A stretch of 64,000 nucleotides of DNA from a virus (lineage: Duplodnaviria; Heunggongvirae; Uroviricota; Caudoviricetes): positions 1 through 64,000 of IMG/VR virus record IMGVR_UViG_3300035670_000138, one strand, 5' to 3'. The position numbers were made by a program, and so were the translations under genes. The notes beneath the pieces were generated by a model that was not told the origin of the DNA, did not search any database, and saw only the letters and a program-made list of their open reading frames with translations. This document shows, piece after piece, positions 5,435-26,576 of the stretch. Within the stretch, counting starts at the first letter, position 1; each line of letters begins with the position of its first letter.

Positions 5435-5905
5435 ATGAACATATTTTTCACAGATCCCGATCCTGTTAAATGTGCCGAGTATCTAGACAACAAACGAGTA
5501 ATTAAGATGATTCTCGAATCCTGTCAAATGCTATCTACTGCAATAAATGAGTCTGGAGGGAAAGCTCCATACAAATCTACTCATAAAAATCATCCCTCAA
5601 ATGTTTGGGTTAGACAGTCTTACGATAACTTTAAATGGTTATGGAATCATATGTTAGCTTTAAACGATCAGTATTATACTAGATTTGGTAAGAATCATAA
5701 GTCTGCTGTTATATTTAAAAACTCCGACATTCTAGATCAAGCAGAAGCTTTACTTCCTAAAGTAGGGTTAACCAATAAGCCTAATTGTGCTGCTAATTCT
5801 GGGTTAGGAATATCATATAAACATGTTAGCGATATATACGAGGCATATAAACTATACTTGAATGATCGTTGGGAGAATGATAAAAATGATGTTAAATGGA
5901 GTTAA
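5435..5905 (+). CDS. pyrimidine-dimer DNA glycosylase-like (T4 endonuclease V superfamily) protein
   Basis: The SD aggagg precedes the ATG. The N-terminus MNIFFTDPDPVKCAEYLDNKRVIKMILESCQML..HKNHPSNVWV..NFKWLWNHMLALNDQYY resembles bacterial and phage PDG-family (Pyr_excise-like) proteins. I call the function from memory only. Confidence 0.4.
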   Translation: MNIFFTDPDPVKCAEYLDNKRVIKMILESCQMLSTAINESGGKAPYKSTHKNHPSNVWVRQSYDNFKWLWNHMLALNDQYYTRFGKNHKSAVIFKNSDILDQAEALLPKVGLTNKPNCAANSGLGISYKHVSDIYEAYKLYLNDRWENDKNDVKWS

Positions 5906-6251
5906 GCTTAAGAATGGAGATCTTCTTGTTAGAAACTCCTATTACCCCATAATAGAATCAAAGATTACAAGAAAATGTTTATTTAGATTTGAGGAATATA
6001 AAGGAGAATACTATTTATATTCTAATATTGAAGCTTTTTGGGGAGATTCAACTAAATATATCTCACTAAACTCTGATTATCCGAATTGTCATAATGAATA
6101 TACTAGATATATAAATTTACCTTTAGTAAACATACAAACATACTACACTCCGTATATGAAATGTTATCCAAATTCATCATTATACAAAACATTATATCCT
6201 AACGGTCAGGAAGACGGTAATTTTTGGAAGGTATTACAATGCGAAAATTAG
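5886..6251 (+). CDS. YPNG-tail family member 1 (C-terminus ...CYPNSSLYKTLYPNGQEDGNFWKVLQCEN)
   Basis: The conserved C-terminal module lies at the extreme C-terminus. SD gggaga precedes the ATG at 5886. Confidence 0.55.
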   Translation: MMLNGVKLKNGDLLVRNSYYPIIESKITRKCLFRFEEYKGEYYLYSNIEAFWGDSTKYISLNSDYPNCHNEYTRYINLPLVNIQTYYTPYMKCYPNSSLYKTLYPNGQEDGNFWKVLQCEN

Positions 6252-6496
6252 TTTATTGTATAAGAAATAAAAATCGTAAAGAGTTAGTTAAGAATAGAGC
6301 ATACTTAGCTATAGGATATAAAAAATTTAATGAGGGGTATCTTTTTACATTAGAAGGACATTCCACATTTGACTATTGCTGCACTAGATTTAAAGAAATT
6401 AGGCTATATCCCAACACTAAATTATTTCAACAATTATATCCAGACCATATATTATACCAAGGTAAACTAGGAGTTCTCAGTGAAATTAAGTTATAG
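6224..6496 (+). CDS. YPNG-tail family member 2, divergent (...LYPNTKLFQQLYPDHILYQGKLGV...)
   Basis: The ATG follows the ggaagg embedded in member 1's tail codons. The C-terminal module is present but degenerate. Confidence 0.5.
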   Translation: MEGITMRKLVYCIRNKNRKELVKNRAYLAIGYKKFNEGYLFTLEGHSTFDYCCTRFKEIRLYPNTKLFQQLYPDHILYQGKLGVLSEIKL

Positions 6497-7490
6497 TAAA
6501 GTTGAAAAATACAAACAATGTCCGGCTTCTTACGATTTTCATTACAATCAGAAGTTGCGAAATAAGTATATAGGATCTCCATTATTCTTCGGCACAGCAA
6601 TAGATGATGCGATTGGAGTATTAAAGCTACCATTGATTAAACAACTTACCGATAAACAGAAAGAACAGATAAAAGAAACTCCCGAGAATGTCTTTAAAAA
6701 AAGAATGACATATATGAATCATAACGGAGAAGAAATAAATATTAGAGAATTTCCCTTTATAAATTATTCAAAGTCAGATATAGATACTTCTATATTCTCC
6801 GAAGCTGATATAAAAGAAATCAATGATAAGTTTTTCGACAATCCTTTAACTAGTAAACAATTACAAGAATATGCAGAATTTATTGCAGATCAAAAAAGAT
6901 CTGAAAAAATAGTTGAAAAAAATGATTTTCTAGCTTACAATAGTATTTGTTGGCTATCTCTTTACAATAAGGGGATTATGATTATAGATTGCTACAGAAA
7001 AGAAATTATACCGCAAATATTGGAGATTGTTTCTATACAGGAAACTGTGAGTATTACTAATAATGATGGGGATGAAATTGTTGGATTTATCGACGATATT
7101 AGAATATACAAAGACGAGCCGAATGTTATGTACATAAACGATGATAAAACTAGCTCTAAGGCATATAAACAAGAACAGCTAGATGAAAGTCCTCAATTAT
7201 CGACATATGCTTGGTATAAGGATATTCCTAATATAAGCTATACTGTTATGGAAAAGTCAGTAAGAAAGAAAGAGCCGAGAATTAGGATTAATATATTGAA
7301 AGGCATTAGTTCAGATGATTATAAGGATAAAGTACTAGATGAATATGAGAATGTATTGCTAAAGATAAACAATAATGAGTATCCTAAAGACTTTAATTCA
7401 GGGTGCAAGTTTTATGGAGCTAAATGTTTGTATTACGATATTTGTCATAATGATACTATGCCTGAATATATTGTTGAAATGAAGAGGTAG
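6480..7490 (+). CDS. PD-(D/E)XK nuclease of the RecB/Cas4 family with a 4-Cys cluster. GTG start
   Basis: The N-terminus YSKVEKYKQCPASYDFHY carries the single N-terminal Cys typical of Cas4/AddB. The core has IVGFIDDI..DDKTSSKAYK..QLSTYAW (D, D/ExK and QxxxY). The C-terminus CKFYGAKCLYYDIC supplies the other three Cys. SD aggag precedes the GTG. Confidence 0.7.
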   Translation: MKLSYSKVEKYKQCPASYDFHYNQKLRNKYIGSPLFFGTAIDDAIGVLKLPLIKQLTDKQKEQIKETPENVFKKRMTYMNHNGEEINIREFPFINYSKSDIDTSIFSEADIKEINDKFFDNPLTSKQLQEYAEFIADQKRSEKIVEKNDFLAYNSICWLSLYNKGIMIIDCYRKEIIPQILEIVSIQETVSITNNDGDEIVGFIDDIRIYKDEPNVMYINDDKTSSKAYKQEQLDESPQLSTYAWYKDIPNISYTVMEKSVRKKEPRIRINILKGISSDDYKDKVLDEYENVLLKINNNEYPKDFNSGCKFYGAKCLYYDICHNDTMPEYIVEMKR

Positions 7491-7494
7491 AGCT

Positions 7495-7701
7495 ATGGAA
7501 TATAGATTGAAAGATAGATTAGATATGATGAAAGCAGATTTAACGAGGGAATTAGAGGAACTGATTTCTCGTAGAGATAGACTTTTGGTAAATTTAAAAT
7601 CATTCCAAAGTTCACTAAATGAATGTCAAAATCAAATTTTAGAAACACAATCAGCAATGGTTGAATTAGATAAACTACTGGAGGAAAAACAATGGAAATA
7701 G
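7495..7701 (+). CDS. hypothetical coiled-coil protein (68 aa)
   Basis: SD gaggtag precedes the ATG. Confidence 0.45.
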   Translation: MEYRLKDRLDMMKADLTRELEELISRRDRLLVNLKSFQSSLNECQNQILETQSAMVELDKLLEEKQWK

Positions 7702-8021
7702 ATTTAGGTAGAGACATTGATTCTATGAAAAAAGAGGCATTAGTGAAGTATGTTAGAGAATTAGTCGCACACATTAAAGGATTGACTAAAAAAGAACAAT
7801 CTTTAGAGAATGAAGAGAACTTACCTTATGATGCAGTTAGCGTTGTAGGTAAAAAGTTCGTCACTTTAAAGTTCGATCTTGAAAGCGGTAAAGCTAAGGT
7901 TGTTGACGTAAAGACTGACACAAGAGACATTAGAAACAACAACATGGCAGTATACTATGCTAACCACAAGTTACTGGAATTAGGGAAAAAACAAAAGGAG
8001 AAAGAAGATGAAAAAAATTAA
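7692..8021 (+). CDS. hypothetical protein (109 aa)
   Basis: SD ggagga precedes the ATG. Confidence 0.45.
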   Translation: MEIDLGRDIDSMKKEALVKYVRELVAHIKGLTKKEQSLENEENLPYDAVSVVGKKFVTLKFDLESGKAKVVDVKTDTRDIRNNNMAVYYANHKLLELGKKQKEKEDEKN

Positions 8022-8379
8022 TGGAAGTTTACTAAAGGCTAGAATGGACGATAAGCAATTATTAGTAAGCCAAGCTAGTTTTTTGGAGAATCTAGAAACA
8101 GCAGGAAAGGGTGCTAACGGTATTATTCAAGAAGCTAAGAAGTTTTTAGCAATTAACGAAGATGATAGCGTAATTGCATCAAATGCTGAAGTTATTAAGA
8201 TTTACAATAAGACATCAAATGCTGTTGTAAGTTTTGATAGAGCATTGCTCGCTTTAAAAGAGTTAGAGTTACTAGATAGTAATGAAACTCAAGTTTTAGA
8301 CAATTTACATAAAAAACTTGTTGAAAAAATTTGTGATTTATACGATATTAGTAATGACGAATTATTCTTGGAGGAATAA
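8008..8379 (+). CDS. hypothetical protein (123 aa)
   Basis: SD aaggag precedes the ATG. Confidence 0.45.
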   Translation: MKKINGSLLKARMDDKQLLVSQASFLENLETAGKGANGIIQEAKKFLAINEDDSVIASNAEVIKIYNKTSNAVVSFDRALLALKELELLDSNETQVLDNLHKKLVEKICDLYDISNDELFLEE

Positions 8380-8934
8380 ATGAAATCAAGTGAAAGTATT
8401 ATTAACATAGCAAAAGCTCTAAACAAAGCTCAAGCTGAATTAGGAAGTGTTGTAAAAGGAAGTAATAACCCTTACTACGACTCTAAATACGCCGATATTA
8501 ACGACGTAATTAAGACTATTAAGGAAACATTGAATAAGAACGATATCACGTTTATTCAGCCTTTAATGGTTAAAGAAGTGGCAGGACTTAAGGTTACTGT
8601 AGTTGAGACTGTATTGTTACACAATACGGGAGAATATATCTCAAGCGAAACTGAAGTTGTAACTAAAGACAATGGTGACGCTCAGAAATATGGAGCAGCG
8701 ATTACTTATAGTCGAAGATTTGGGCTACAATCAATCGTAGGATTACCTGCTGAAGACGATGATGGGAATACTGCAACAGGTAAAGCACCTAAGACTCCTC
8801 CGGCTACTGCTTCTACTACAAAAAACGAAGCTAAGTCTGACTCTCCTACAAAGTTTTCAAATAGAGGTCAAAAATTAACAAATACTGCACCAAGTAAACC
8901 TCAAGCTAACAAAGGAGATGACGATGATATCTGA
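8380..8934 (+). CDS. erf: Erf-family single-strand annealing protein (SSAP) with an SSB-like acidic C-terminal tip
   Basis: Erf signatures are ALNKAQAELGSVVKGSNNPYYDSKYADINDV, HNTGEYI, GAAITYSRRFGL and PAEDDDG. A low-complexity P/T/A linker ends in GDDDDI. Confidence 0.65.
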   Translation: MKSSESIINIAKALNKAQAELGSVVKGSNNPYYDSKYADINDVIKTIKETLNKNDITFIQPLMVKEVAGLKVTVVETVLLHNTGEYISSETEVVTKDNGDAQKYGAAITYSRRFGLQSIVGLPAEDDDGNTATGKAPKTPPATASTTKNEAKSDSPTKFSNRGQKLTNTAPSKPQANKGDDDDI

Positions 8935-9205
8935 TGAACAAAAAAAGGGAGAGAATCTTATAATGGATACCGTTCTTTCACTGAGAGAACAATTATGTGA
9001 TAAGATTTCGGGAATGGGTAAAAATAGCCTACAAAGAGTTATGAAATCTTGGGCTAAATTCCCTGAAACTCCAGAGATTAATAACTGGAATAAAGACGAA
9101 GTAGACGCTATTAATTTGGCTTTTAAACTAATCGATGCTCAAGTTTCAGCATCAATCATAGCAATTGGAAACAACCAATTAAACAAAGGGGAAGGAAATG
9201 AGTAA
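8918..9205 (+). CDS. hypothetical protein (95 aa)
   Basis: SD aaaggag precedes the ATG. Confidence 0.45.
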   Translation: MTMISDEQKKGENLIMDTVLSLREQLCDKISGMGKNSLQRVMKSWAKFPETPEINNWNKDEVDAINLAFKLIDAQVSASIIAIGNNQLNKGEGNE

Positions 9206-9512: not shown

Positions 9513-9519
9513 CTACAAC

Positions 9520-9543: not shown

Positions 9544-9545
9544 AA

Positions 9546-9788
9546 ATGAAAATAAAACTAAGTAAAGAAATTGAGAAGAATTTAATATTGAAGCCTCAAA
9601 TTTTGAGACATTTTGAGACTAATGATCCGACACCTCAGAATATAGCTTCTTATTGTGCAATGGTTGGAGTTCCAATAGTTAGTACTTATTACTATTTAAT
9701 TACTGACAATAACAGAAAAGAATTGATTAAAGATTTAATTAGATTGTGCGAGTTTTACGATATGGAGGTTGATTGTGAGATTACCTAA
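9546..9788 (+). CDS. hypothetical protein (80 aa; alternative TTG start at 9528)
   Basis: ORF. The start is ambiguous because the hairpin overlaps the region just upstream. Confidence 0.35.
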   Translation: MKIKLSKEIEKNLILKPQILRHFETNDPTPQNIASYCAMVGVPIVSTYYYLITDNNRKELIKDLIRLCEFYDMEVDCEIT

Positions 9789-10041
9789 AGTCGGTGAATA
9801 TTGGAAAGGTCGAGACTTTTATGGTGAGATAGTTTCTGGTGAGGTAACTAAAGTAGGAAGTTCATATGAACCTGATATGCAATATATAAAAATAACTCGT
9901 GAAGATGTAGGTTTAGCTCTAGAATTACATTGGGTACTTGCTATTGAACCTGCATTTAGGGATTACCCCAACACTGAAATATTTCGTAAATTATATCCTA
10001 ATGGACAAGAATGTGCTAGATTTTGGAGGGTAAATGTCTAA
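9775..10041 (+). CDS. YPNG-tail family member 3 (...DYPNTEIFRKLYPNGQECARFWRVNV). GTG start
   Basis: The C-terminal module is present. SD ggagg sits 6 nt before the GTG. Confidence 0.5.
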   Translation: MRLPKVGEYWKGRDFYGEIVSGEVTKVGSSYEPDMQYIKITREDVGLALELHWVLAIEPAFRDYPNTEIFRKLYPNGQECARFWRVNV

Positions 10042-10318
10042 ATTTTACAATATAAAAATAAATACTTTAGTAGAGTGCATAGATACTTCAGATTTAATAG
10101 ATGCTGCAATTAAAGAAGGAAATAAATACATAGTATATCGTTATAATTATGATCCCTATATAGACACTGTTCACCTAAAATGTGTTATATCGGGAGAATT
10201 TTCCGGTCCTTATTTTGTTCACAGGTTTAAGTCAGTTAAATTTTATCCAAATACATCTCTTTTTAGAGAGTTGTATCCAAATGCAATTATTGAAAAAAAT
10301 TTCTTGAAAATAATTTAA
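10034..10318 (+). CDS. YPNG-tail family member 4 (...KFYPNTSLFRELYPNAIIEKNFLKII)
   Basis: The ATG follows the ggaggg embedded in member 3's tail codons. Confidence 0.5.
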   Translation: MSKFYNIKINTLVECIDTSDLIDAAIKEGNKYIVYRYNYDPYIDTVHLKCVISGEFSGPYFVHRFKSVKFYPNTSLFRELYPNAIIEKNFLKII

Positions 10319-12266: not shown

Positions 12267-12598
12267 AAGACGACTTTGATGACTTCGGCATGATATTTAG
12301 AGATCCTGAGTATGTAGATTCTCAACAAGAGATTGCTCTACTAATATCTCAGGTAGAAAGATTGGACGATATGTCTTTATTAGACGAGATGACTGAAATA
12401 AATAGAGAAATATCAGATTATAAATTAAAAGATATTCTATTTGAATATAATACCTTCCTAAAGGAAGATAGTTATCAAAATTATATTCTTGATGATGATA
12501 ACAGAAAATATCTTGAAAATTTATATATTCTGTTTTATACTGAAATAACACTCCACGAACAAGAAGGAGCTAAATTTGTATACGAACCCAAGCTCTAA
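12263..12598 (+). CDS. hypothetical acidic protein (111 aa). TTG start
   Basis: SD ggagga sits 6 nt before the TTG. Confidence 0.4.
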   Translation: MKDDFDDFGMIFRDPEYVDSQQEIALLISQVERLDDMSLLDEMTEINREISDYKLKDILFEYNTFLKEDSYQNYILDDDNRKYLENLYILFYTEITLHEQEGAKFVYEPKL

Positions 12599-15065
12599 AG
12601 AAAAACTAATTGTCCAAGATGATAACGATTATTCCGAGTTTAAGAATTATTTATCAGGTAAGCAATATAGTTTAAATGGCACTACAATAGAAACCGATGA
12701 TTATATTATTGATCTTAATCCTAAATATCTAGATTCGTTCAAGGGAAAAAAATATGAAAATCCCATAATCTATGGCAAAGATCAGACGGAAAATATAGTC
12801 GCCGTTGAAGTAAAAGATGATAAATTGTGGCTTTTTAAGAACGATGACACTATCGAATGTAGACCCCTAGATTTGTGGATTACTTGTGCAAAAAAACCTA
12901 GCAGTAAGTGGGATACTCTCGGAGGATTTCAACATTATAGGTATATCAGACATTTTAATACTATCGAAGAATATAAAGAAACTAAGACTAAATTAATTCA
13001 AAGAAAGTTCGACTATTTCACTATAAATAATCTCGAAGAAAACGAGCTAATAACCAAAGGTATTACTTTATTTAAAGGACTCAAGGTTAACGAAGTGTCT
13101 AGACTAGGGTTCGATATAGAAGCTGACGGATTAGTGACCACTAGCAGTTCTATGGTATTTACTATAGCTAATACTTTTAGAAAAGACGGCATTGAAATCA
13201 AGAAAACTTTTAGGGTAGATCATTACGACAATAATCCTGCAGAAATGATTGATGATTGGTGCAAATGGGTTAGAGAACACAATCCAACCATAATGGTAGC
13301 ACATAATGGGTTCGGGTATGACTTGAAGTATTTAAACCATGTTGCTAAATTATATGGTACTAAGTTATATTTAGGTCGAGATGGTTCTGAAGTAACATTC
13401 TCGCATTATGCTAAAAATTACAGGTATGACGGTAACTCGTCTTGGGAATATACCGATTGTCGAGTATTTGGTCGCCATGTTGTAGATACTGCGTTTTTAG
13501 CGGTAAAATACGATATAGGTAGAAACTTCCCTTCTTGGGGATTAAAGCCTATTATAGACCATTTAGGGCTTGTTAAAGAAGGTCGTCAGTTTTATGATGC
13601 ATCTAAAATCCGTGAAAACTGGAAGAATCTAGTAGAACGTGAGAAGATTGTAGAATACTGTTCTGATGACGGTGATGACTGTTTAAATTTATATGAACTA
13701 ATGGTTCCATCTTTCTTTTATATGTGTCAGAATATACCTAAGCCGTTTCAGTTGATGTTACAAGGTGCGTCAGGTGGTTGGTTAAATAGTATGATGATTA
13801 GAGCTTATCTACAACAAGGTAAGTCTATTGCCAAGAAAAGCTCATTAGCTGAGGGTGAAAAGGTTTCTGGAGCTATTTCGTTTGGTATGGCAGGAATCCA
13901 TAAAAATGTATATAAAATCGACATTAAATCAATGTATCCTAGTATAATGCGCCAATGGAAATTGTCGGACAAGGATAAAGATCCCGATAATTATTTCTTT
14001 AATCTTGTTGAAACATTTACTTTAGAGAGGTTTAAAAATAAGGCTTTACATAAGCAAACAGGCGAGCAGTACTATGATGATATGCAGTCGTCACAAAAAG
14101 TATTTATTAACTCACTATATGGAATGTTAGGAGCTGAACTAAACTATAATAGTTATGTTAATGCAGACTTTGTAACAGGTATGGGTAGACAGATTATTCG
14201 TAAAACAATGGTTTGGGCTACAGGTAAAGATGTAGATTACTGGTTTCCTGAGTATGAATTTCCTAAAGATGTAAAATATAATAACATTCTCGATAAAATA
14301 GACTTGACAAAAACTCATAATTTTGTTATAGTAAATGCAGATACTGACTCTATCTCTTTTAGAAAGAATGATGGAGCCGAGTTTACCGAGGAAGAAATGA
14401 AATCTCTTTTAAAAGAAATAAATTCATTACTACCAGAGCTTCTTGAATATGAAGACGATGGGTACTTTGATAAAGTAGTTGTTGTAAAGGCTAAAAACTA
14501 CGTTTTAAAGCAAAAAGGTAAGGATAAGATTAAATATAAAGGATCTTCTTTAACTGACTCTAAGAAAGAACCTGCGTTAACTGAAATGTTGAAAGAAGTA
14601 ATTGAAAATTCTTTAATTCACGAAAAAGTCGACTATCTAGATATATATAATACTTATCTAAAAGAAGTAAAAGATATACAAGATATAAATAGATGGGCAG
14701 TTAAAAAGAGTATTAGTGAAAAGTTATTTGAAAGCGATCGACCTAATGAAACTAAGGTAATTGATGCTTTGAAAAATAGACCTGTTCAAGTTGGAGATAA
14801 GATATATCTATATAACGATATAGACGGACTTACTCCTGAGATCAAAAAAGGCGAGGTTGTTATTATTAAAAAAACTGGAGAGCCTAAAATGATCGAGAAT
14901 AGAGTATTAAGAATGGTCGAGGATTTTGAAGGATCATATGACATGTTCCATTATGTTGAAAGAGTATATAATACTATGAAGATTCTTGAAAATGTTATAG
15001 ATATGTCTAGGTTAACTAAATATCATCTAGTTGGTAATCAGAAAAAATTCGAGTCTTTATGTTAA
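12576..15065 (+). CDS. family-B DNA polymerase with a 3'-5' exonuclease domain. TTG start
   Basis: Exonuclease motifs are Exo I GFDIEADG, Exo II NGFGYDLKYL and Exo III YCSDDGDD. Polymerase motifs are A DIKSMYPSI, B KVFINSLYGMLG and C VNADTDSI. SD aaggag precedes the TTG. Confidence 0.85.
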   Translation: MYTNPSSKEKLIVQDDNDYSEFKNYLSGKQYSLNGTTIETDDYIIDLNPKYLDSFKGKKYENPIIYGKDQTENIVAVEVKDDKLWLFKNDDTIECRPLDLWITCAKKPSSKWDTLGGFQHYRYIRHFNTIEEYKETKTKLIQRKFDYFTINNLEENELITKGITLFKGLKVNEVSRLGFDIEADGLVTTSSSMVFTIANTFRKDGIEIKKTFRVDHYDNNPAEMIDDWCKWVREHNPTIMVAHNGFGYDLKYLNHVAKLYGTKLYLGRDGSEVTFSHYAKNYRYDGNSSWEYTDCRVFGRHVVDTAFLAVKYDIGRNFPSWGLKPIIDHLGLVKEGRQFYDASKIRENWKNLVEREKIVEYCSDDGDDCLNLYELMVPSFFYMCQNIPKPFQLMLQGASGGWLNSMMIRAYLQQGKSIAKKSSLAEGEKVSGAISFGMAGIHKNVYKIDIKSMYPSIMRQWKLSDKDKDPDNYFFNLVETFTLERFKNKALHKQTGEQYYDDMQSSQKVFINSLYGMLGAELNYNSYVNADFVTGMGRQIIRKTMVWATGKDVDYWFPEYEFPKDVKYNNILDKIDLTKTHNFVIVNADTDSISFRKNDGAEFTEEEMKSLLKEINSLLPELLEYEDDGYFDKVVVVKAKNYVLKQKGKDKIKYKGSSLTDSKKEPALTEMLKEVIENSLIHEKVDYLDIYNTYLKEVKDIQDINRWAVKKSISEKLFESDRPNETKVIDALKNRPVQVGDKIYLYNDIDGLTPEIKKGEVVIIKKTGEPKMIENRVLRMVEDFEGSYDMFHYVERVYNTMKILENVIDMSRLTKYHLVGNQKKFESLC

Positions 15066-19893: not shown

Positions 19894-20391
19894 ATGAGAA
19901 TGTCTCCATTTTCAGCAGTGCTAAGAATATTACTATTATTTAGTATTGTAAATAGCTGTGCTAGATTAAGTAAAATGGTCAGAATAGAGCCAACTCATAA
20001 TGGAATAGATCCTCGACTATCTTCGTATGTATCAGAAGTAAAACGACTGTCTAAAGGATGCTTAGGTAATGTTAAATATGCTGCGATAACTAATTTGAGT
20101 GAACAGTACGATCAAAGTCTCGCAGGAATGGCTAGTTATGTACTGCCTAATTTTAAACATCAGATAGAATTAGACGACTATTACTGGAAGAGAGTATCTC
20201 ATATACCGAGATTACTGACAGTAGCTCATGAACTATATCATATTGAAAATACTTACTTCTATCATATAAACGAAGTTGACGAATGGGGATGTGCTAAGCA
20301 TTTTATGTTCCATCAAGTTCAATCGTATTGGTGCGATGTATTTAACTTTGAAAAGTATGTTAAACAAATGCAGGATTGTCACGATGAGTAA
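19894..20391 (+). CDS. secreted protein with an HExxH zinc-metallopeptidase-like motif (VAHELYHIEN)
   Basis: A signal-like N-terminus MRMSPFSAVLRILLLFSIVNSCA is followed later by the HELYH motif. The motif alone is weak evidence. Confidence 0.3.
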   Translation: MRMSPFSAVLRILLLFSIVNSCARLSKMVRIEPTHNGIDPRLSSYVSEVKRLSKGCLGNVKYAAITNLSEQYDQSLAGMASYVLPNFKHQIELDDYYWKRVSHIPRLLTVAHELYHIENTYFYHINEVDEWGCAKHFMFHQVQSYWCDVFNFEKYVKQMQDCHDE

Positions 20392-20713
20392 GTATTTAGG
20401 TAAAAGAGTAAAGATTAACAAAACAGGTGAAACTGGAATTATAGTAGCGTTTGATAACTATGACGGAGATTATGTTTTTATATATGACGATCGTGATTAC
20501 AACCCAGATTCTGTTTTTATAGATGCCGACGATTATATATTTATTGGTAGCGGAGTTATTAGAGTAGATAATATAATGGATTATTTACGTAGAGAATATG
20601 ATTGGTTTTATTCTGTGGAATTTACCCCAATTAAATTATACCCTAATACGGAATTATTCAAAAAGTTATATCCTAACGGTACTGAAAAAGAAGGATTTTG
20701 GGAGGTTTGTTAG
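20384..20713 (+). CDS. YPNG-tail family member 5 (...KLYPNTELFKKLYPNGTEKEGFWEVC)
   Basis: It starts at an ATG with SD ggtaaaag. The C-terminal module is present. Confidence 0.55.
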   Translation: MSKYLGKRVKINKTGETGIIVAFDNYDGDYVFIYDDRDYNPDSVFIDADDYIFIGSGVIRVDNIMDYLRREYDWFYSVEFTPIKLYPNTELFKKLYPNGTEKEGFWEVC

Positions 20714-21072
20714 TGACAGAAGTTGAAGCAAAAAAATATATAGGTAAAAAAATTAAATGTACGATTAGACCACTTGTTGAAGGTATCGTTGTTGGATTTT
20801 CAATGAAGGAACAGGATTTTTTAATAGCACCACCCTTTCGAAAAATTTCTATTTCATTAGATGAATTTGTAAATGATATACACTCTAAACTTTATGGAAA
20901 TGAATCATATTGGTTTGATTTTGATTTATGTGACAAATTCAAGAATAGTGAATATGACTTTATACGGTTCGATAACGTGATATTATTATCTAAGTTTTAT
21001 CCTAACTCTACGTTATTTAAAACTATATATCCTAACGGTACTGAAGAAGATGGATTTTGGAGGGTAGATTAA
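20713..21072 (+). CDS. YPNG-tail family member 6 (...KFYPNSTLFKTIYPNGTEEDGFWRVD). GTG start
   Basis: The GTG lies 7 nt after the GGAGG encoded by member 5's FWEV codons. Confidence 0.55.
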   Translation: MTEVEAKKYIGKKIKCTIRPLVEGIVVGFSMKEQDFLIAPPFRKISISLDEFVNDIHSKLYGNESYWFDFDLCDKFKNSEYDFIRFDNVILLSKFYPNSTLFKTIYPNGTEEDGFWRVD

Positions 21073-21075: not shown

Positions 21076-21468
21076 ATGAAATATAAATTGTTAAACACAG
21101 ACATATTATATTCCAAATCTGAGTTTAAAAAACTATACAGTATGTTAGGTAAAAAATACTTAATAGATGAATCTATAGTTAAGGTTGTAGGTTTAGATCT
21201 TGATGATAACGATTTGCTTTGCGTGGATGCAAATTCAAAACTTGACGAAACCCATTCGGAATATTCTTTTTTTAACGTTTATAATAATAAAAAAAATTAT
21301 AACATAATATTTGCTATTGATTCTGTTAAATTTGAACTAAATGAATGGGATTGGCATTATGGATCACACCTAGTTCCTTATGTGAAAAAATATCCCAAAA
21401 CTAAGCTATTCAAAAAGTTATACCCTCAAGGTAAATCTGTAAAAGGATTTTGGGAAGTCGAACAATGA
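21076..21468 (+). CDS. YPNG-tail family member 7 (...KKYPKTKLFKKLYPQGKSVKGFWEVEQ)
   Basis: The ATG follows the ggaggg embedded in member 6's tail codons. Confidence 0.55.
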   Translation: MKYKLLNTDILYSKSEFKKLYSMLGKKYLIDESIVKVVGLDLDDNDLLCVDANSKLDETHSEYSFFNVYNNKKNYNIIFAIDSVKFELNEWDWHYGSHLVPYVKKYPKTKLFKKLYPQGKSVKGFWEVEQ

Positions 21469-21686: not shown

Positions 21687-21842
21687 CCACTATGAAATAT
21701 TTTATTAACGTAATGAAGAATGGTAGAATCTTGGTAAAAAGTCATGATACTGGAGATACTAAAATATGCTCCAAACTAGAAGACGCTATAAACTTTATTA
21801 AAGAACAAGAAAGCAAAGATGAAGAATCTAAGGAGAAAATTT

Positions 21843-22790
21843 ATGAGTAGACCTGTAGAATGGGATAAGAAAATTATCGAAATGATAAAAGCTATGTATG
21901 CTAGATTTAGCTATAAAGAGATAGCTGACGCTGTTAACAAAGCTTTTGGTACAGAACACTCTCCAAATGCTATAAGAAAGGTTCATGAAAGGTATTATGT
22001 TGATCCCAAGCCTGAACATACATTTGCTAAGCCTAAAGTTCTATTAATTGACATTGAGACAAGTCCCATTATTGCTGCGGTATGGGCGGTCGGAGGAAAG
22101 CCTCAACACGTTCCTCTGGAGAATAAAATTAAAGATTGGGCTATCCTAAGTTTTTCAGCTAAATGGTTTGATAAAAAACCTGTAATGTATATGGACACTA
22201 GTAAAAAAGCAGATCCTTATGATGATAAAGAGTTATGTTTAAAGCTTAAAGAGTTATTAGATGAGGCTGATATTGTAATCTCACAAAACGGAAGAAAATT
22301 CGACGTTCCTAAAATCAATGCTCGACTTTTCGAACATAAAATCCCTAAGCCTACTAGTTTTAGACATATAGATACTTATTTAATTTCAAGATCACACTTT
22401 GCCTTTACTAGTAATAAGCTTGCATATTTAACATCTAAGTTTACTAAACATGAGAAACTTAAACACTCGAAATTTCCGGGAATATCTCTATGGTTGGAAT
22501 GTTGCTTGAATAAAAACAAGAAAGCATTTGCTGAAATGAAGAAGTATAATGTGATGGATACTGTAGTTTTACAGGAAATCTATGAATTACTAGCTCCTTG
22601 GGATAATTCTCTAAATTTTACAATGTATGGAGATAAAGAAACTTGCTCTTGCGGTAATTCTGAATTTAAAGCTTCAGGGTATTACTATACTAACTCTTGC
22701 GTATATCAGAAGTTTCAATGTACTAAATGTGGTAAAGAATATAGAGATAAGAAGAACTTAAAAACTTCAAGATTTGCGAATATAAAGTAA
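21843..22790 (+). CDS. RNase-H-fold 3'-5' exonuclease (PolB-exonuclease-like, RNase_H_2 type) with a C-terminal zinc ribbon
   Basis: SD taaggag precedes the ATG. Motifs are LLIDIETSP (Exo I-like DxE) and ISQNGRKFDVP (Exo II-like). The C-terminus has CSCG...CTKCG. Confidence 0.45.
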   Translation: MSRPVEWDKKIIEMIKAMYARFSYKEIADAVNKAFGTEHSPNAIRKVHERYYVDPKPEHTFAKPKVLLIDIETSPIIAAVWAVGGKPQHVPLENKIKDWAILSFSAKWFDKKPVMYMDTSKKADPYDDKELCLKLKELLDEADIVISQNGRKFDVPKINARLFEHKIPKPTSFRHIDTYLISRSHFAFTSNKLAYLTSKFTKHEKLKHSKFPGISLWLECCLNKNKKAFAEMKKYNVMDTVVLQEIYELLAPWDNSLNFTMYGDKETCSCGNSEFKASGYYYTNSCVYQKFQCTKCGKEYRDKKNLKTSRFANIK

Positions 22791-22801
22791 TTGAGGTACT
22801 T

Positions 22802-23377
22802 ATGAGTAATAAGCTAAACGATATAGTCGAACTCGCTCATGACTATCATATAAACTTATCCACTAAGACTACGTGGATTACTGGCGAAATTGATGAAGAA
22901 CAAGCCGATAGGTTAAGTAAGAACTTGTCAATTCTAGACAGTAATCAAAACAATAAGCCTATAACTATAATACTAGATTCGTCGGGTGGAGAAGTTAATC
23001 AGGGGCTTAGAATGTACAATCTTATATGTAATTGTACGAACGTGGTAAGGATTATTGTCGAGGGTAAGGCTGAATCTATGGCTAGTATTATACTACAAGC
23101 CGGAGATGAAAGGATTATGTTTGCAGACTCTCATTTAATGCTACATATAGGTACTGAAGCATTTGCCGAAGATCACCCTGAGAATGTTAAAAGATGGAAA
23201 GCTAAGGCAGAAATTGACACAAAAAGAACAGAAGACATATACTTAAGTCGGATTAAAGAAAAAAAGAAAAAATTTACAAGAAATCAGTTGAAAGAAATGT
23301 TAAACTTTGATACAATATTATCACCAAAGGAAGCAATGGAGCTTGGATTGGTAGATAGGATTGAAACAAATGTATAG
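22802..23377 (+). CDS. ClpP-family (S14) serine peptidase
   Basis: The segment ITIILDSSGGEVNQGLRMYN matches the ClpP oxyanion region. GKAESMAS carries the catalytic Ser and MLHIGT the His. Confidence 0.6.
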   Translation: MSNKLNDIVELAHDYHINLSTKTTWITGEIDEEQADRLSKNLSILDSNQNNKPITIILDSSGGEVNQGLRMYNLICNCTNVVRIIVEGKAESMASIILQAGDERIMFADSHLMLHIGTEAFAEDHPENVKRWKAKAEIDTKRTEDIYLSRIKEKKKKFTRNQLKEMLNFDTILSPKEAMELGLVDRIETNV

Positions 23378-23717
23378 CGAAAATGAAATCCTCGTATTAG
23401 TTGAAGACATAGGCGAAGAAGGTACTGATAAGTTCATTGCAAAAGGAACTGAGGTTATCTTTCTAAAAGTAATTGACAATCCTGCAGACCTTAGTAAAGC
23501 TATGGTTCATATAAAGCACGGTAAAAGAGGTCTAGTTGTTCCGGAAATAGCAGTTACGCCTAAAGATCGTAAGAAGCTAGTTAAAGCGTTAGACGAGTTT
23601 AACAAAGCGTTTCTAGAGCAAAATCCTGACCTTAAAAGGTATCACCCAAATATAATTTTAAGATACTATTATAGATTTATTCACTTCATCAAAGGATTGA
23701 TAAATGGACGAAATTAA
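23370..23717 (+). CDS. hypothetical protein (115 aa)
   Basis: ORF overlapping the ClpP stop. Confidence 0.4.
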   Translation: MYSENEILVLVEDIGEEGTDKFIAKGTEVIFLKVIDNPADLSKAMVHIKHGKRGLVVPEIAVTPKDRKKLVKALDEFNKAFLEQNPDLKRYHPNIILRYYYRFIHFIKGLINGRN

Positions 23718-23967
23718 GTATGTTAGATGGAAAAAACCTACCGATTTAAGAAGTAAATTCACTAAGGGAAAGAAGTATAGAGTTGAAATTCGATCTGCTA
23801 ATAGGATCAATATTTACGACGATGTTGGCAATTCTCGCCATTGTAATTTTGATGTTATTGAACAATACTTCGATTTATTCGATTATTTGCCAAATACTAA
23901 GTTATTTAGAGAATTACATCCAAATGCGTCTGTTGAGGGAAATAAACTTAAAGTATTAATTAAGTAG
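23704..23967 (+). CDS. YPNG-tail family member 8 (...DYLPNTKLFRELHPNASVEGNKLKVLIK)
   Basis: The C-terminal module is present. Confidence 0.5.
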   Translation: MDEIKYVRWKKPTDLRSKFTKGKKYRVEIRSANRINIYDDVGNSRHCNFDVIEQYFDLFDYLPNTKLFRELHPNASVEGNKLKVLIK

Positions 23968-23975
23968 GGGAATGT

Positions 23976-24245
23976 ATGAATATTAAAGTTGGAGATAAAA
24001 TCCGTTGGATATATTTAGAACATCGTAAAGATTTAACAATGAATAATGTATATACAGTTAATAGAGTAGAAAACAACGAAATATGGTTTCGTGACGATGG
24101 TGAGTGGGAACGCTTTGTGTACGACTATCAATTTCCTAATTGTTTTGAACTAGTTAACAAGTATTATCCTAATACTAGTTTATTTAGAAAACTGTATCCA
24201 GAAGGTAAAGAACAAGGTAAATTTATAGAGGTAACTCGTGAATAA
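23976..24245 (+). CDS. YPNG-tail family member 9 (...KYYPNTSLFRKLYPEGKEQGKFIEVTRE)
   Basis: SD gtagggg precedes the ATG. The C-terminal module is present. Confidence 0.55.
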   Translation: MNIKVGDKIRWIYLEHRKDLTMNNVYTVNRVENNEIWFRDDGEWERFVYDYQFPNCFELVNKYYPNTSLFRKLYPEGKEQGKFIEVTRE

Positions 24246-24276
24246 TTCTCCAAAAAAGTATAATAAAGGTAAACCT

Positions 24277-24594
24277 ATGATGAGTTTGATTCGTCCTGAA
24301 TTTCAAAAAGGATTGGCATCAGCTTTAACATATGGATATGAAAAGTATGGCGAGAGAAGAGGTGCTATCCAAAACTATTTAAAAGGGGAAGGATTTCATT
24401 ACTCTACAATATACGACTCTCTACAGAGACATTTAGGTGAGTGGTGGAGTGGTAATGATTTAGATGAAGAAAGTAAGATACATCATTTATATATGGCTGC
24501 GGCTAATCTTATGTTTTTAGCGACATATGAAATGTGTGATAAGGGAATTGACGATAGAATAAGCTTGGAGGATGAAGATGAAGTTGAAGATTAA
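24277..24594 (+). CDS. dATP/dGTP diphosphohydrolase N-terminal-domain-like protein (phage nucleotide-pool enzyme)
   Basis: The pattern LIRPEFQKGLASALTYGYEKYGERRG...LQRHLGEWWSGNDLDEESKIHHLYMAAANLMFLATYE resembles the phage dGTP_diPhyd_N family. I call this from memory. Confidence 0.35.
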   Translation: MMSLIRPEFQKGLASALTYGYEKYGERRGAIQNYLKGEGFHYSTIYDSLQRHLGEWWSGNDLDEESKIHHLYMAAANLMFLATYEMCDKGIDDRISLEDEDEVED

Positions 24595-25018
24595 ATTACT
24601 AAGTGAAAATGCAATAGTACCTGAATATAAAACCGAAGGTGCATCAGGGTTTGACTTTCATGCATTAGAGGATATATCAATATCTGCAGGACAGACAAAG
24701 CTGATAAAAACTGGACTATCTTTTGAAATTCCTAAAGGGTATGAACTACAAGTAAGACCTAGATCAGGGTTAAGTTTAAATACTAAGCTAAGAGTTTCTA
24801 ATTCTCCGGGAACTGTGGATCACGATTTTCGAGGCGAGGTATGTATAATTATGGATAATATCAGTGGTGCAGAAAGCGTTTTTTCAACAATAAAAATCAA
24901 AAAAGGAGATAGAATAGCTCAAGGGGTTATTTGCCCCGTAGTTAGAGCGGAATTTGATGTAGTAAATGATTTAAGTGAAACTAAAAGGGGTTCTGGAGGA
25001 TTTGGTTCTACTAACTAA
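24578..25018 (+). CDS. dut: dUTP diphosphatase (trimeric dUTPase)
   Basis: dUTPase motifs are GASGFDF, RPRSGL, GTVDHDFRGEV and a C-terminal RGSGGFGSTN. Confidence 0.85.
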   Translation: MKLKIKLLSENAIVPEYKTEGASGFDFHALEDISISAGQTKLIKTGLSFEIPKGYELQVRPRSGLSLNTKLRVSNSPGTVDHDFRGEVCIIMDNISGAESVFSTIKIKKGDRIAQGVICPVVRAEFDVVNDLSETKRGSGGFGSTN

Positions 25019-25027
25019 AGGATTAAA

Positions 25028-25417
25028 ATGAAACCTAAAAAGGTTCCTAGAAGAGAAGAAAAAGACGGACAATTAGATAAACTAAAAAATAGAGTGAGAA
25101 ATTTAGAAAAGGAAAATCACAGATTAAAATCTGAATTAAGAACATATGAACAGGCGTTTAAAAATACGACTAAATTTTTAAGAGATAATACTAAAGAGAT
25201 TAGCCTAGAAAAGCTAATAGATGCTGCGAAAAAAGGCGACTCATTAAAACAAGTTAGAGATAGCGAAGTTAAAAAAACATGTAAATTTTGCTTCTCAACT
25301 AACATTCATGTTGGCACTATACCGTCAGGTAAAATGATAATGTGTAGAGATTGTAGTAAAACGGAGGTAGAAAGAAATGATCGAGGGCAAATTAGCGAAC
25401 CAGATTCCGAGATGTAA
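25028..25417 (+). CDS. hypothetical coiled-coil protein with a Cys cluster (129 aa)
   Basis: ORF with the Cys pattern CKFCFS...CRDC. Confidence 0.4.
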   Translation: MKPKKVPRREEKDGQLDKLKNRVRNLEKENHRLKSELRTYEQAFKNTTKFLRDNTKEISLEKLIDAAKKGDSLKQVRDSEVKKTCKFCFSTNIHVGTIPSGKMIMCRDCSKTEVERNDRGQISEPDSEM

Positions 25418-25625
25418 GTTTAACACTAAATGTGAGAAATGTAATAAAATATTATCGTTTCCTAAAATAGATCACATTGTCGGAGAATCTAACACATATT
25501 ATGTATATAACTATCTAGATACTTCTAACTTCATATATGAGACTAGTTCAGGAAGTTCAGTTGTATACTGTAGTAAATATTGTCGCAATAAACATAACCA
25601 TAGGTTTAAAAATGCCAATAAGTAA
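25377..25625 (+). CDS. small Cys-rich protein (82 aa)
   Basis: ORF with CKFNTKCEKCN...CSKYC. Confidence 0.35.
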   Translation: MIEGKLANQIPRCKFNTKCEKCNKILSFPKIDHIVGESNTYYVYNYLDTSNFIYETSSGSSVVYCSKYCRNKHNHRFKNANK

Positions 25626-26016
25626 TAAAGTCCATTTAAAGAATAAAATCATAATGAAGCTACGCCAAATGACTTGGGAATGGCAACCTATTGTCAATGC
25701 TGAGAAGAGAACTAAGGTAGATAAGGCAACTAATGAATGTGAGTTGTGCGGGACATATGTATATACTGGATCTAGTAAAAAGAGTCACGAAGCTTTGATT
25801 GAGAAATATCCCGATAGAAATGTTATAATGGGGACTCTATACAAAGACCATATAAATCCTGTAGTTCCTATAGGTAAAACTCAGCAAGAAATGACTTATG
25901 ATGAAATTGTCGACAGTTTATTTTGCGAAGAAGATAATATTCAATGTATTTGTAAACAATGTCACGATATTAAGAGTAAGTCTGAAAATATTCAAAGAAA
26001 AGACTTGAAAAAATAA
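25612..26016 (+). CDS. HNH endonuclease-like protein
   Basis: The Cys/His pattern CELCG...KDHINPVVPIGKT...CICKQCHDIKS fits an HNH core. Confidence 0.45.
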   Translation: MPISNKVHLKNKIIMKLRQMTWEWQPIVNAEKRTKVDKATNECELCGTYVYTGSSKKSHEALIEKYPDRNVIMGTLYKDHINPVVPIGKTQQEMTYDEIVDSLFCEEDNIQCICKQCHDIKSKSENIQRKDLKK

Positions 26017-26043
26017 TATTTATTTGTTAATATAAAACTAGGT

Positions 26044-26235
26044 ATGTATAACTTTATACTATTTTATATTTATTTTGCGAGAATCATGACAAACGAATCA
26101 GTAAATTATGTTGAACCAATTCCTGTTGATAAATGTGAGTATTATGTTTGTCAATCTAGTACATATAGAGAGTGTCTAAAAGAGGAAATTGACTATAGGA
26201 TTCTTGAATGTTCTAACATAAGGATAGAAAAATAA
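26044..26235 (+). CDS. hypothetical protein (63 aa)
   Basis: ORF. Confidence 0.3.
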   Translation: MYNFILFYIYFARIMTNESVNYVEPIPVDKCEYYVCQSSTYRECLKEEIDYRILECSNIRIEK

Positions 26236-26576
26236 TGTTGAATCATCTAGTAAGAAGTCATTTCTTTGGAGAATTTGGTATTTATGAAATAATAGCAAGG
26301 TCTTCTAGTGAAGCATTGTTACTTTGTAGTGACAAAGAATATTCTCGACCTTTTAAATTAAATAAAACTATACTTAACGATATGAAAATAGCGGAGAGTT
26401 TAGGACAAATGACTATCTCTGAAAATATAGAAAAACATCTTAATAAACCTATAACTTGGACATGGTTAGAAATTGGCGGAAGTATTTGTACTAAATTTGT
26501 ACCTAATACTTCTCTATTTAGAGCTATGTATCCTGATGGTGTCGAGTTTGGTAATAAACTAAGGGTAATGAAGTGA
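26235..26576 (+). CDS. YPNG-tail family member 10 (...KFVPNTSLFRAMYPDGVEFGNKLRVMK)
   Basis: SD aaggatag precedes the ATG. The C-terminal module is present. Confidence 0.5.
   Translation: MLNHLVRSHFFGEFGIYEIIARSSSEALLLCSDKEYSRPFKLNKTILNDMKIAESLGQMTISENIEKHLNKPITWTWLEIGGSICTKFVPNTSLFRAMYPDGVEFGNKLRVMK

What the first reader, a model, noticed from the sequence alone, without database searches (positions are those of the whole stretch)
5886..26576. Ten-member paralogous family of small early proteins sharing an invariant C-terminal tail (YPNTxLF+xLYPNGxExGxFW+V)
Ten separate ORFs end within 0-5 residues of the same roughly 25-aa module. They are 5886..6251, 6224..6496, 9775..10041, 10034..10318, 20384..20713, 20713..21072, 21076..21468, 23704..23967, 23976..24245 and 26235..26576. 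The upstream 60-100 aa of each differ. Several have a short β-strand-like G+x[VI]+[IV] segment near the N-terminus, which hints at a small β-barrel. Synonymous codon variation occurs across copies, for example ccc/cct/cca, aat/aac and ttc/ttt, while the amino acids stay conserved. That points to protein-level selection on the tail rather than a purely DNA-level repeat. The members sit in five clusters of one to three genes between replication and nucleotide-metabolism genes. I do not recognise the motif from any described family. Possible roles include a shared docking or targeting peptide. It could bind a common host target, act as a degron for the two phage ClpP-like peptidases, or serve as a packaging signal. 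Another possibility is a diversified anti-defence or host-takeover arsenal built on one scaffold.
Basis: seen in the sequence. Interest (0 to 1): 0.85.

Follow-up and report, generated by a model that had tools for sequence, protein, structure and literature searches.

The report
Phage small-protein family sharing one mini-domain
An uncultured low-GC phage carries ten (about twenty genome-wide) small genes that share an undescribed 30-residue mini-domain joined to fast-changing partner domains, which looks like a diversified toolkit built on one handle, though its function is unknown.

Summary
Exactly ten + strand ORFs in the window end in the module K-x-YPNT-x-LF-[RK]-x-LYP-[NDE]G-x-E-x-G-x-[FK][WL]-x-V. 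Each scores HMM E 1e-13 to 1e-20 and the next six-frame hit is E 0.2. A degenerate DNA pattern gives 10 hits against 0.14 expected.

Conservation is at the protein level. Third codon positions are the least conserved, synonymous sites are near random, the other frames hold stops, and no RNA structure is predicted.

The module matches nothing in Pfam, PHROGs, NCBIfam, PADLOC, PDB sequences, cultured phages or IMG/VR. An exhaustive search finds about 101 clusters, all small metagenomic proteins. The module is C-terminal in 77, N-terminal in 15 and near-C-terminal in 9, so it is portable.

AlphaFold2 (pLDDT 92) models member 9 as an SH3-like small beta-barrel running without a linker into a strand-helix-hairpin module. 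Bodies are unrelated by BLAST and evolve far faster than neighbouring genes (13-36% against 68-83% identity), yet omega is below 1.

Two further points are new. The last module codons double as the Shine-Dalgarno of the next gene. The same phage appears to carry about ten more copies just outside the window.

The function is inferred: a constant interaction handle on variable binders. It is a new protein family of a familiar kind.

The parts
5886..6251 (+). Member m1 (121 aa from ATG 5886; alternative ATG 5862 gives 129 aa). Module core YPNSSLYKTLYPNGQEDGNFWKV at 6165-6233. Long-type body.
   Evidence: gene callers give 121 aa (P0012) and 129 aa (P0105)
6239..6496 (+). Module core 6407-6475, subtype C (LYPDHILYQGKLGV). 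CTA-GGA-GTT supplies the AGGAG Shine-Dalgarno for the PD-(D/E)XK nuclease gene, which starts at GTG 6480.
   Evidence: (P0005)
9775..10041 (+). Member m3 (88 aa, GTG 9775). Module core 9964-10032. TGG-AGG-GTA forms the GGAGGG Shine-Dalgarno for m4, which starts at ATG 10034.
   Evidence: (P0003)
10034..10318 (+). Member m4 (94 aa). Module core 10244-10312, subtype B (LYPNAIIEKNFLKI). It is followed by a 34-nt spacer carrying its own GGAGG before the primase-helicase gene (10353).
   Evidence: (P0001)
20384..20713 (+). Member m5 (109 aa). Long-type body (YLGKRVK..G.IVAFD). Module core 20639-20707. TGG-GAG-GTT forms the GGGAGG Shine-Dalgarno for m6, which starts at GTG 20713.
   Evidence: (P0009)
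20713..21072 (+). Member m6 (119 aa, GTG start). Long-type body. Module core 20998-21066. TGG-AGG-GTA forms the Shine-Dalgarno for m7, which starts at ATG 21076.
   Evidence: (P0011)
21076..21468 (+). Member m7 (130 aa; an internal start gives 108 aa). Long-type body. Module core 21391-21459 (YPKTKLFKKLYPQGKSVKGFWEV).
   Evidence: P0010; P0106
23704..23967 (+). Member m8 (87 aa). Short-type body. Module core 23887-23955, subtype B (LPNTKLFRELHPNASVEGNKLKV). It lies one gene downstream of the non-structural ClpP (22802-23377).
   Evidence: (P0004)
23976..24245 (+). Member m9 (89 aa), the modelled member. SH3-like barrel at residues 8-59; module strand 61-65, helix 68-73, hairpin 78-80/83-87. 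Module core 24165-24233. GAG-GTA supplies the Shine-Dalgarno for the MazZ-like gene, which starts at GTG 24238.
   Evidence: (P0002)
26235..26576 (+). Member m10 (113 aa). Module core 26499-26567 (VPNTSLFRAMYPDGVEFGNKLRV). The next gene starts at GTG 26573, overlapping its stop codon.
   Evidence: (P0013)

Best explanation
The ten ORFs are real protein genes of an undescribed, lineage-restricted phage family. The family is defined by an autonomous mini-domain of about 30 residues, with consensus K-x-YPNT-x-LF-[RK]-x-LYP-[NDE]G-x-E-x-G-x-[FK][WL]-x-V. AlphaFold2 predicts it as one beta-strand, a two-turn helix and a beta-hairpin. Most conserved residues look like fold determinants: two Pro-Asn turns, a Thr/Ser helix N-cap, a Gly hairpin turn and an aromatic/aliphatic core. 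No catalytic-looking polar cluster is conserved. In most members the module follows, without a linker, a small and rapidly diverging body. That body is an SH3-like beta-barrel in the one member modelled, and a second 'long' body class also exists. In about 15% of family clusters the module comes first and is followed by unrelated sequence. The phage keeps about 20 copies at fixed positions: a dense array at the head of the rightward arm, and pairs or triples in front of replication and nucleotide-metabolism genes. My proposed mechanism is inferred, not shown. I propose that the constant module is a shared interaction handle, acting either by self-association or by docking to one common phage or host partner. 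The variable bodies would then bind different targets, so the set would work as a diversified arsenal of host-directed adaptors or inhibitors, under pressure to change the bodies while keeping the handle. A second constraint is shown rather than inferred. When the module ends a gene, its last codons (TGG-AGG-GTN, TGG-GAG-GTN or CTA-GGA-GTT) form the Shine-Dalgarno of the abutting downstream gene, so members are translationally coupled to what follows.
Against: There are no expression, interaction or phenotype data, and the host is unknown. There is no linker and the whole-chain pTM is 0.71, which fits a single compact unit as well as a separate handle. The conserved residues are mainly structural, and I cannot point to a conserved surface patch that would mark a shared partner. 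Fast body evolution could reflect relaxed constraint rather than an arms race, since omega is below 1 everywhere measured. That L062 belongs to the same genome is inferred from identical longest-contig length (76,727 bp), shared samples and GC content, not from sequence overlap. The AF2 alignment consists of family members whose bodies align poorly.
Confidence: 0.45

Rival explanations
1. This is one fast-diverging small-domain family with no shared partner. The module is simply the most constrained part of the fold, a C-terminal cap or folding nucleus on a small beta-barrel. Each paralogue then works independently, for example as an RNA-, DNA- or RNA-polymerase-binding protein in the manner of KOW, Tudor and LSm barrels.
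Against: The module occurs at the N-terminus with only 4-20 residues before it and unrelated sequence after it in 15 clusters, several of them in this same phage. It therefore does not need the barrel. At least two body classes show no profile similarity to each other. AF2 was confident on the module even when the body was unresolved.
Confidence: 0.3
2. These are mobile gene cassettes. Members would be small accessory ORFs that spread and swap between core genes by recombination. The conserved module-coding end would act as the junction and bring a Shine-Dalgarno so that the downstream essential gene stays expressed.
For: Members sit immediately upstream of core genes and supply their Shine-Dalgarno. 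At conserved positions a relative carries a body that does not align with the window's on a recognisable tail (m7 and m8 against L022). L030 is a recombinant whose crossover lies between the end of a member and the first ~170 nt of the next gene. The phage encodes an ERF recombinase and a PD-(D/E)XK exonuclease.
Against: Synonymous sites in the module are essentially randomised (0.527 against 0.473). DNA identity between copies is only 60-79%, with exact runs of 17 nt or less, which is poor substrate for homologous exchange. The amino-acid sequence is what is conserved, including in members where the module is not at a gene end. Omega is below 1 in bodies and tails. The L030 crossover interval is about 200 nt wide and mostly inside the conserved nuclease gene.
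Confidence: 0.1
3. The tail is a terminal sorting signal. It could be a degron for the phage ClpP, a capsid-packaging signal or a secretion tag.
For: A non-structural ClpP (PF00574, E 2.6e-27) lies one gene upstream of m8/m9, and the same arrangement is kept in L022. A second ClpP-fold prohead protease is present. The T4 internal proteins are a precedent for a shared targeting peptide on variable cargo (my own knowledge, not tested here).
Against: Known C-terminal degrons need a defined extreme C-terminus. Here 0-7 unconserved residues follow the module, and in 24 of 101 clusters it is N-terminal or internal. The module is a folded 30-residue unit rather than a short linear motif. No cleavage-site-like motif is conserved next to it. 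ClpP co-occurrence could be tested in only two related genomes.
Confidence: 0.07
4. The repeat is primarily a DNA- or RNA-level element, such as a regulatory site, recombination site or structured RNA, that happens to lie in coding sequence.
For: The last three codons do carry an RNA-level signal, the Shine-Dalgarno, with significant codon bias.
Against: Third positions are the least conserved, and the other frames hold stops. Synonymous sites are near random. RNAalifold predicts 0 pairs. There are no Rfam hits. Promoter-like sites are not enriched (87 against 91.6 expected). Distant homologues are recognisable only as protein.
Confidence: 0.03

Closest known systems
T4 GoF / MotB.1 / Frd.2 family of LSm-like (SH3/FeoA-like) early proteins (Kim et al. 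2025, PMC12152347)
   Different: There is no sequence relationship (hhalign probability 0.15% to GoF and MotB.1). In T4 the barrel is the shared element and the C-terminal domains vary and are joined by flexible linkers. Here the barrel varies and the terminal module is the shared element, joined without a linker. T4 has 3 members and this phage about 20. Frd.2 was not compared.
SH3-like small beta-barrel superfold (KOW, Tudor, LSm, FeoA, chromo-like)
T4 internal proteins (IPI/II/III) sharing a capsid-targeting sequence; poxvirus ankyrin/PRANC arrays (design analogues, from my own knowledge)
   Same: These are multi-copy viral families in which one short constant element is combined with diversified partner domains.
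   Different: The T4 targeting sequence is an N-terminal peptide of about 10 residues that is cleaved. PRANC is an F-box-like domain that recruits a eukaryotic ubiquitin ligase. Neither resembles this module in sequence, and nothing here shows targeting or recruitment. The resemblance is in design only.

Membership tests
Any curated protein family (Pfam-A, PHROGs v4, NCBIfam 20, PADLOC-DB 2) | A significant profile-HMM match covering the module | tested here: not met
   No hit on the module in any library. The only hits are weak ones, below threshold or off-target, on bodies: DUF4222 E 0.004, phrog_4927 E 9e-4, phrog_9730 E 7e-4 and NanU 21.8 bits against a 425-bit cutoff.
Proteins with a solved structure (PDB sequences) | A sequence-profile match to any PDB chain | tested here: not met
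   0 hits at E<=10 with profile A4.
SH3-like small beta-barrel fold class | Five-stranded, strongly bent antiparallel barrel of about 50-60 residues, recognised by structure comparison | tested here: met
KOW motif family (PF00467) | Match to the KOW profile (Gly-rich 27-residue motif) | tested here: not met
   No Pfam hit at E<=1. There is only a visual '+xGDxV' resemblance.
T4 GoF/MotB.1/Frd.2 LSm-like family | Detectable sequence-profile homology of the barrel | tested here: not met
   hhalign of A6 against GoF and against MotB.1 gives probability 0.15%. Frd.2 was not tested.
T4 GoF/MotB.1/Frd.2 LSm-like family | Conserved N-terminal barrel with variable C-terminal domains on flexible linkers | tested here: not met
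   The architecture is the inverse: variable barrel, constant C-terminal module, no linker.
C-terminal degron (ssrA-like) | A short linear motif whose last residues at the extreme C-terminus are conserved | tested here: not met
   0-7 unconserved residues follow the module. It is N-terminal or internal in 24 of 101 clusters, and it is predicted to be folded.
Nucleotide-level repeat (promoter/stem-loop cassette boundary, attC-like site, structured RNA) | Frame-independent nucleotide conservation, or a conserved inverted repeat or RNA structure | tested here: not met
   Codon position 3 is the least conserved. Synonymous sites are near random. RNAalifold predicts 0 pairs. There are no Rfam hits.
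Early / host-takeover gene class | Transcription early in infection | not testable with these tools
   Positional inference only. The genes are co-oriented with replication genes, and the L062 array starts the rightward arm next to the divergent terminase arm. Promoter scans were uninformative.

The most novel reading that the evidence does not exclude
The 30-residue module is a docking handle that plugs about 20 different small binding domains into one shared machine, for example the phage's own non-structural ClpP or a host hub protein. That would make this a phage-encoded array of interchangeable substrate or target adaptors, a bacterial-virus counterpart of the F-box/PRANC logic of eukaryotic viruses. 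The bodies would be evolving under host pressure.
Probability: 0.12. Interest if true: 0.85.

Novelty: new variant of a known kind. Interest (0 to 1): 0.55.

Why it matters
About twenty of this 77-kb phage's genes appear to be built on a single unannotated mini-domain that no curated library or solved structure covers. The design is a constant handle joined to hypervariable small binding domains, kept at fixed genomic positions while the bodies change several times faster than neighbouring genes. That is what one expects of proteins at the phage-host interface. The family is therefore a compact, testable entry point into the function of phage 'dark matter' genes, and a candidate source of small modular binders. 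The overlay of a Shine-Dalgarno on the module's last codons is also a clean example of dual coding that constrains both codon choice and gene order.

Tried and rejected
Megablast of the region against cultured phages found nothing. The 37-residue tail alignment was too short for the indexed protein search. The IMG/VR scans with the tail alignment and with a back-translated pattern found no member.

The species-representative genome scan gave four hits, all chance: weak scores, not in real ORFs, and no hairpin half. I therefore found no prophage or host lead by that route.

The first AF2 run, with 13 sequences, left the body unresolved (pLDDT 42-63). Foldseek of that model against the PDB was meaningless. 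The AFDB50 library was unavailable. BFVD gave only generic small barrels at E>1e-3.

P0081 and P0088, the multi-stretch hits that suggested a repeat protein, are low-complexity junk.

Contexts for P0016, P0019 and P0029 were too short to use. The distant relative L001 shares only PolB with the window, so it could not test co-occurrence with ClpP.

Sigma-70 promoter and terminator scans showed no enrichment. A uniform charge signature (DNA mimic or basic nucleic-acid binder) was rejected, since pI ranges from 4.3 to 9.6.

The L030 recombination breakpoint could not be tied to the module itself. A resemblance of NTSLF to the beta-clamp-binding motif QL[SD]LF, and of [LY]PxxL to F-box starts, was considered from memory and dropped. 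The residues involved look like buried fold determinants, and no test was possible.
Full report
Yes. The ORF list shows all ten + strand ORFs with the stated ends. An HMM built from the ten tails, run against every stop-to-stop segment of at least 20 aa in all six frames, returns exactly these ten (E 1.5e-16 to 5e-20), and the next hit is at E 0.3. A second HMM, built from about 90 tails taken from across the family, gives the same ten, with the next hit at E 0.23. A degenerate DNA pattern for P-N-T-x-L-F-x-x-L-Y-P with up to two mismatches hits 10 times, all on the + strand at these sites. Dinucleotide-preserving shuffles give 0.14.

'Invariant' is too strong. Only the two prolines are invariant, and N, L, F, Y and V are at least 90% conserved. 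Mean pairwise tail identity is 55%, with a range of 39-80%. Three tail subtypes are visible...NGxExGFWxV...NAxxExNxLK[VI] and ...DHILYQGxLGV.

2. PROTEIN-LEVEL OR NUCLEOTIDE-LEVEL CONSERVATION?
It is protein-level.
- In the 24-codon core, mean pairwise nucleotide identity is 0.59, 0.67 and 0.44 at codon positions 1, 2 and 3. It is 0.36 at all three positions in the flank.
- The two other frames contain stops and are less conserved.
- Among pairs of identical degenerate amino acids, 52.7% use the same codon. The genome's own codon usage predicts 47.3%. Synonymous sites are therefore almost fully randomised, which means these are old duplicates with no recent gene conversion.
- DNA identity between copies is 60-79%.
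- RNAalifold predicts no base pair across the ten tail-coding segments.
- Rfam finds nothing in window positions 1-30,000.
- Sigma-70-like sites are not enriched: 87 found against 91.6 expected.
- Between closely related strains (L008, L019, L030; 95-98% nucleotide identity) family genes have omega of 0.15-0.4, so they are under purifying selection and are real genes.
- Every member has a Shine-Dalgarno-like sequence 5-12 nt before its start.

Wherever the module ends a gene, the next gene's start codon lies 7-15 nt after tail codon 21. Codons 20-22 then spell a Shine-Dalgarno: TGG-AGG-GTA, TGG-GAG-GTT or CTA-GGA-GTT.

Codon choice confirms this across 30 non-redundant members with DNA.
- Glu at position 21 is GAG 7 times of 9, against 1 of 14 at tail position 15 (Fisher p=0.001). 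Genome-wide usage of GAG is 30%.
- Arg at position 21 is AGG 5 times of 8, against 0 of 13 at tail position 7 (p=0.003). Genome-wide usage of AGG is 15%.

The two members in that set whose module is not at a gene end use the ordinary AGA and GAA there but still keep W-x-V. The protein constraint is therefore primary, and the Shine-Dalgarno is an overlay. Members are thus translationally coupled to the downstream gene.

4. HOW WIDE IS THE FAMILY?
Curated libraries and solved structures do not know the module.
- Pfam, PHROGs, NCBIfam and PADLOC give no hit on it.
- A profile against all PDB sequences gives 0 hits at E<=10.
- tblastn against 50,697 cultured-phage records gives nothing better than E=4.
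- IMG/VR gives nothing.
- The scan of 185,579 species-representative genomes gave only four chance hits.
- The extended motif strings do not occur in the searchable literature.

The word-indexed search of 5.8 billion proteins found only 8 hits, 5 of them the window's own proteins. The exhaustive HMM search of 1.84 billion 50%-identity representatives found 103 hits at E<=1e-3. Two of these are low-complexity junk. The remaining 101 are proteins of 30-140 aa, with a median of 101 aa among the 77 C-terminal-module proteins. None carries a name other than 'hypothetical protein'.

The module is C-terminal in 77, N-terminal in 15, and near-C-terminal with a short extension in 9. In the N-terminal members only 4-20 residues come before it and unrelated sequence follows it. 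It is therefore a portable unit, not just the end of one fold.

5. COPY NUMBER AND GENOMIC ARRANGEMENT
The window phage recurs at more than 99.9% identity in four independent samples. It is far from any cultured phage. PolB is about 25% identical to Salinibacter and Nostoc phages. TerL is 33% identical to a Silvanigrella phage.

Multi-copy clusters recur in related low-GC (29-34%) contigs. L002 has three in tandem and L022 has four. L023 and L037 have three each. L007, L008, L013 and L019 have two each.

Positions are conserved.
- L008 and L019 carry a pair in front of the PD-(D/E)XK nuclease, as m1/m2 do.
- L007 carries a pair in front of the primase-helicase, as m3/m4 do.
- L022 reproduces the order member, exonuclease, ClpP, two members, MazZ-like, dUTPase, HNH, member, prohead protease.

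The window understates the family. The 186 nt directly upstream of position 1 (L064) encode another tail. A 7.75-kb contig, L062, carries TerL on one strand. On the other strand, at the head of the rightward arm, it carries nine members within 2.7 kb, several with the module at the N-terminus.

I infer that L062 is part of the same genome from three observations.
- Its members and the window's members are each recorded on JGI contigs whose longest is exactly 76,727 bp.
- They come from the same samples.
- Both have 32% GC.
No sequence overlap was available to prove it. If the inference holds, the phage has about 20 members.

6. STRUCTURE
With 13 sequences, AF2 was confident only on the module: pLDDT 87-95, against 42-63 for the body. 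With 33 short-type members, the whole 89-residue member 9 reached mean pLDDT 92.1 and pTM 0.71.
- The body has strands at 8-11, 25-32, 35-39 and 45-49, a short helix at 50-56 and a strand at 57-59.
- The module follows with no linker: strand 61-65 (N-K-Y-Y-P), helix 68-73 (S-L-F-R-K-L) and hairpin 78-80/83-87.

There are three caveats. This is a prediction for one member. The alignment of the bodies is weak.

7. THE BODIES
With tails removed, no two of the ten window members are linked by BLASTP. Their mean identity is 22.3%, against 20.9% for shuffled controls. Family-wide there is a 'short' class of about 55 residues with a KOW-like '+xGDxV+h...G+xYxV' signature. There is also a 'long' class of about 85 residues with the pattern YLGKKVK..G.IVG.D...NI.DY.GKE.Y.Y. 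The two classes show no profile similarity (hhalign probability 0.7%). Body pI ranges from 4.3 to 9.6.

Bodies evolve much faster than their surroundings.
- Against L007 and L008, the flanking nuclease and primase-helicase are 74% and 79% identical. Tails are 48-80% identical, and bodies give only local alignments of 8-11 residues.
- Against L022, neighbouring genes are 68-83% identical, bodies 13-36% and tails 36-64%. At two positions (m7, m8) the relative carries a body that does not align with the window's, at 13-17% identity.
- Between close strains, family dN is 0.04-0.08, against 0.002 for the nuclease.

8. MOST LIKELY MECHANISM
Shown:
- The family is real and under selection on the protein.
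- It is defined by a portable module of about 30 residues.
- The bodies are variable and fast-evolving, and the one modelled is an SH3-like barrel.
- Copy number is high, positions are fixed, and members are coupled to the downstream gene through the Shine-Dalgarno.

Inferred: the module's conserved residues read as fold determinants, namely Pro-Asn turns, a Thr/Ser helix N-cap, a Gly hairpin turn and an aromatic core. No catalytic-looking cluster is conserved, so the module is a structural or binding unit rather than an enzyme.

The combination of one constant unit, many unrelated and rapidly changing small binding domains, and placement among replication genes and at the head of an arm fits a particular reading best. 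In that reading the members form a diversified set of host-directed binders that share a common interaction handle, acting by self-association or by docking to one partner. I give this about 0.45.

The absence of a linker favours this rival. The N-terminal-module proteins and the second body class count against it.

Three further rivals rank lower. The mobile-cassette reading gets about 0.1. It is supported by the Shine-Dalgarno supply, the non-alignable bodies at m7/m8 and the L030 mosaic, and opposed by the randomised synonymous sites. The sorting-signal or degron reading gets about 0.07. ClpP adjacency is conserved in two genomes, but the module is folded, is not at the extreme terminus, and is sometimes N-terminal. 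The purely nucleotide-level element gets about 0.03.

9. COMPARISON WITH WHAT IS KNOWN

It is not the same family. hhalign probability to GoF and to MotB.1 is 0.15%. The logic is also inverted: in T4 the barrel is constant and the C-terminal domains vary on flexible linkers, whereas here the barrel varies and the terminal module is constant. At fold level, member 9's body belongs to the SH3-like small beta-barrel class, but no sequence family (KOW and others) is matched. T4 internal proteins and poxvirus PRANC arrays are design analogues only, cited from my own knowledge.

10. VERDICT

For novelty, this is an undescribed protein module and family, which I class as a new variant of a known kind: lineage-specific expansions of small phage accessory proteins on small-barrel scaffolds.

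I score interest at 0.55. The expansion (about 20 genes in 77 kb) and the constant-handle, variable-body design are striking and testable. However, no function is demonstrated, and families of unknown small phage proteins are common.

Noticed in passing
window 24238-24594 (and L022:3371-3724): A gene matching PF18909, the N-terminal domain of dATP/dGTP diphosphohydrolase (MazZ-like; E 1.7e-24), sits directly upstream of and overlapping the dUTPase gene (24572-25018). It is 83% identical in the relative L022, where the dUTPase itself is only 38% identical. This may be a nucleotide-pool or DNA-modification module. No PurZ-like gene was looked for.
   Followed up: no
L062:4204-6896 and L064:1-110 (outside the window, upstream of position 1): Nine more family members lie in a 2.7-kb tandem array at the head of the rightward arm, next to a divergent terminase gene. 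One more tail ends 76 nt before window position 1. The phage therefore appears to have about 20 members. The link to the same 76,727-bp genome rests on contig-length records, shared samples and GC content, not on sequence overlap.
   Followed up: partly
L008, L019, L030 (orthologues of window 5886-7490): L030 is a recombinant. It matches L019 up to about L008 position 592 (the end of the m2 orthologue) and matches L008 from about position 789 (inside the PD-(D/E)XK nuclease gene). The family cassette and the adjacent core gene therefore have different histories.
   Followed up: partly
L062:163-1689 (-) and the whole window: The terminase's nearest cultured relative (33% identity) is a phage of Silvanigrella aquatica. 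As far as I recall, that host is a low-GC freshwater bacterium. The window is 32% GC, uses strong GGAGG Shine-Dalgarno sites and has no tRNA genes. This is only a weak host lead.
   Followed up: no
window 19894-20391: A 165-aa ORF directly upstream of m5 has a lipoprotein-like signal peptide and an HExxH motif (VAHELYH). It gives a weak match to PF18894, putative phage metallopeptidase (E 2e-4, just below the cutoff).
   Followed up: no
window 12576-15065 and 21819-22790: The family-B DNA polymerase is accompanied by a separate gene matching phrog_403, 'DNA polymerase exonuclease subunit' (E 7e-80), located 7 kb downstream. The m5-m7 triple lies just upstream of that exonuclease gene.
   Followed up: no
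window 20467-20490 and 20506-20529: There is a short internal direct repeat inside the body of m5 (DYVFIYDD / DSVFIDAD; 88% nucleotide identity). It suggests an internal duplication of a beta-strand unit.
   Followed up: no
window 22802-23377 and 28397-29206: Two ClpP-fold genes are present (PF00574, E 2.6e-27 and 9e-16). PHROGs assigns the second to head-maturation proteases. The first is non-structural and sits one gene upstream of m8/m9, and the same order is kept in L022.
   Followed up: partly
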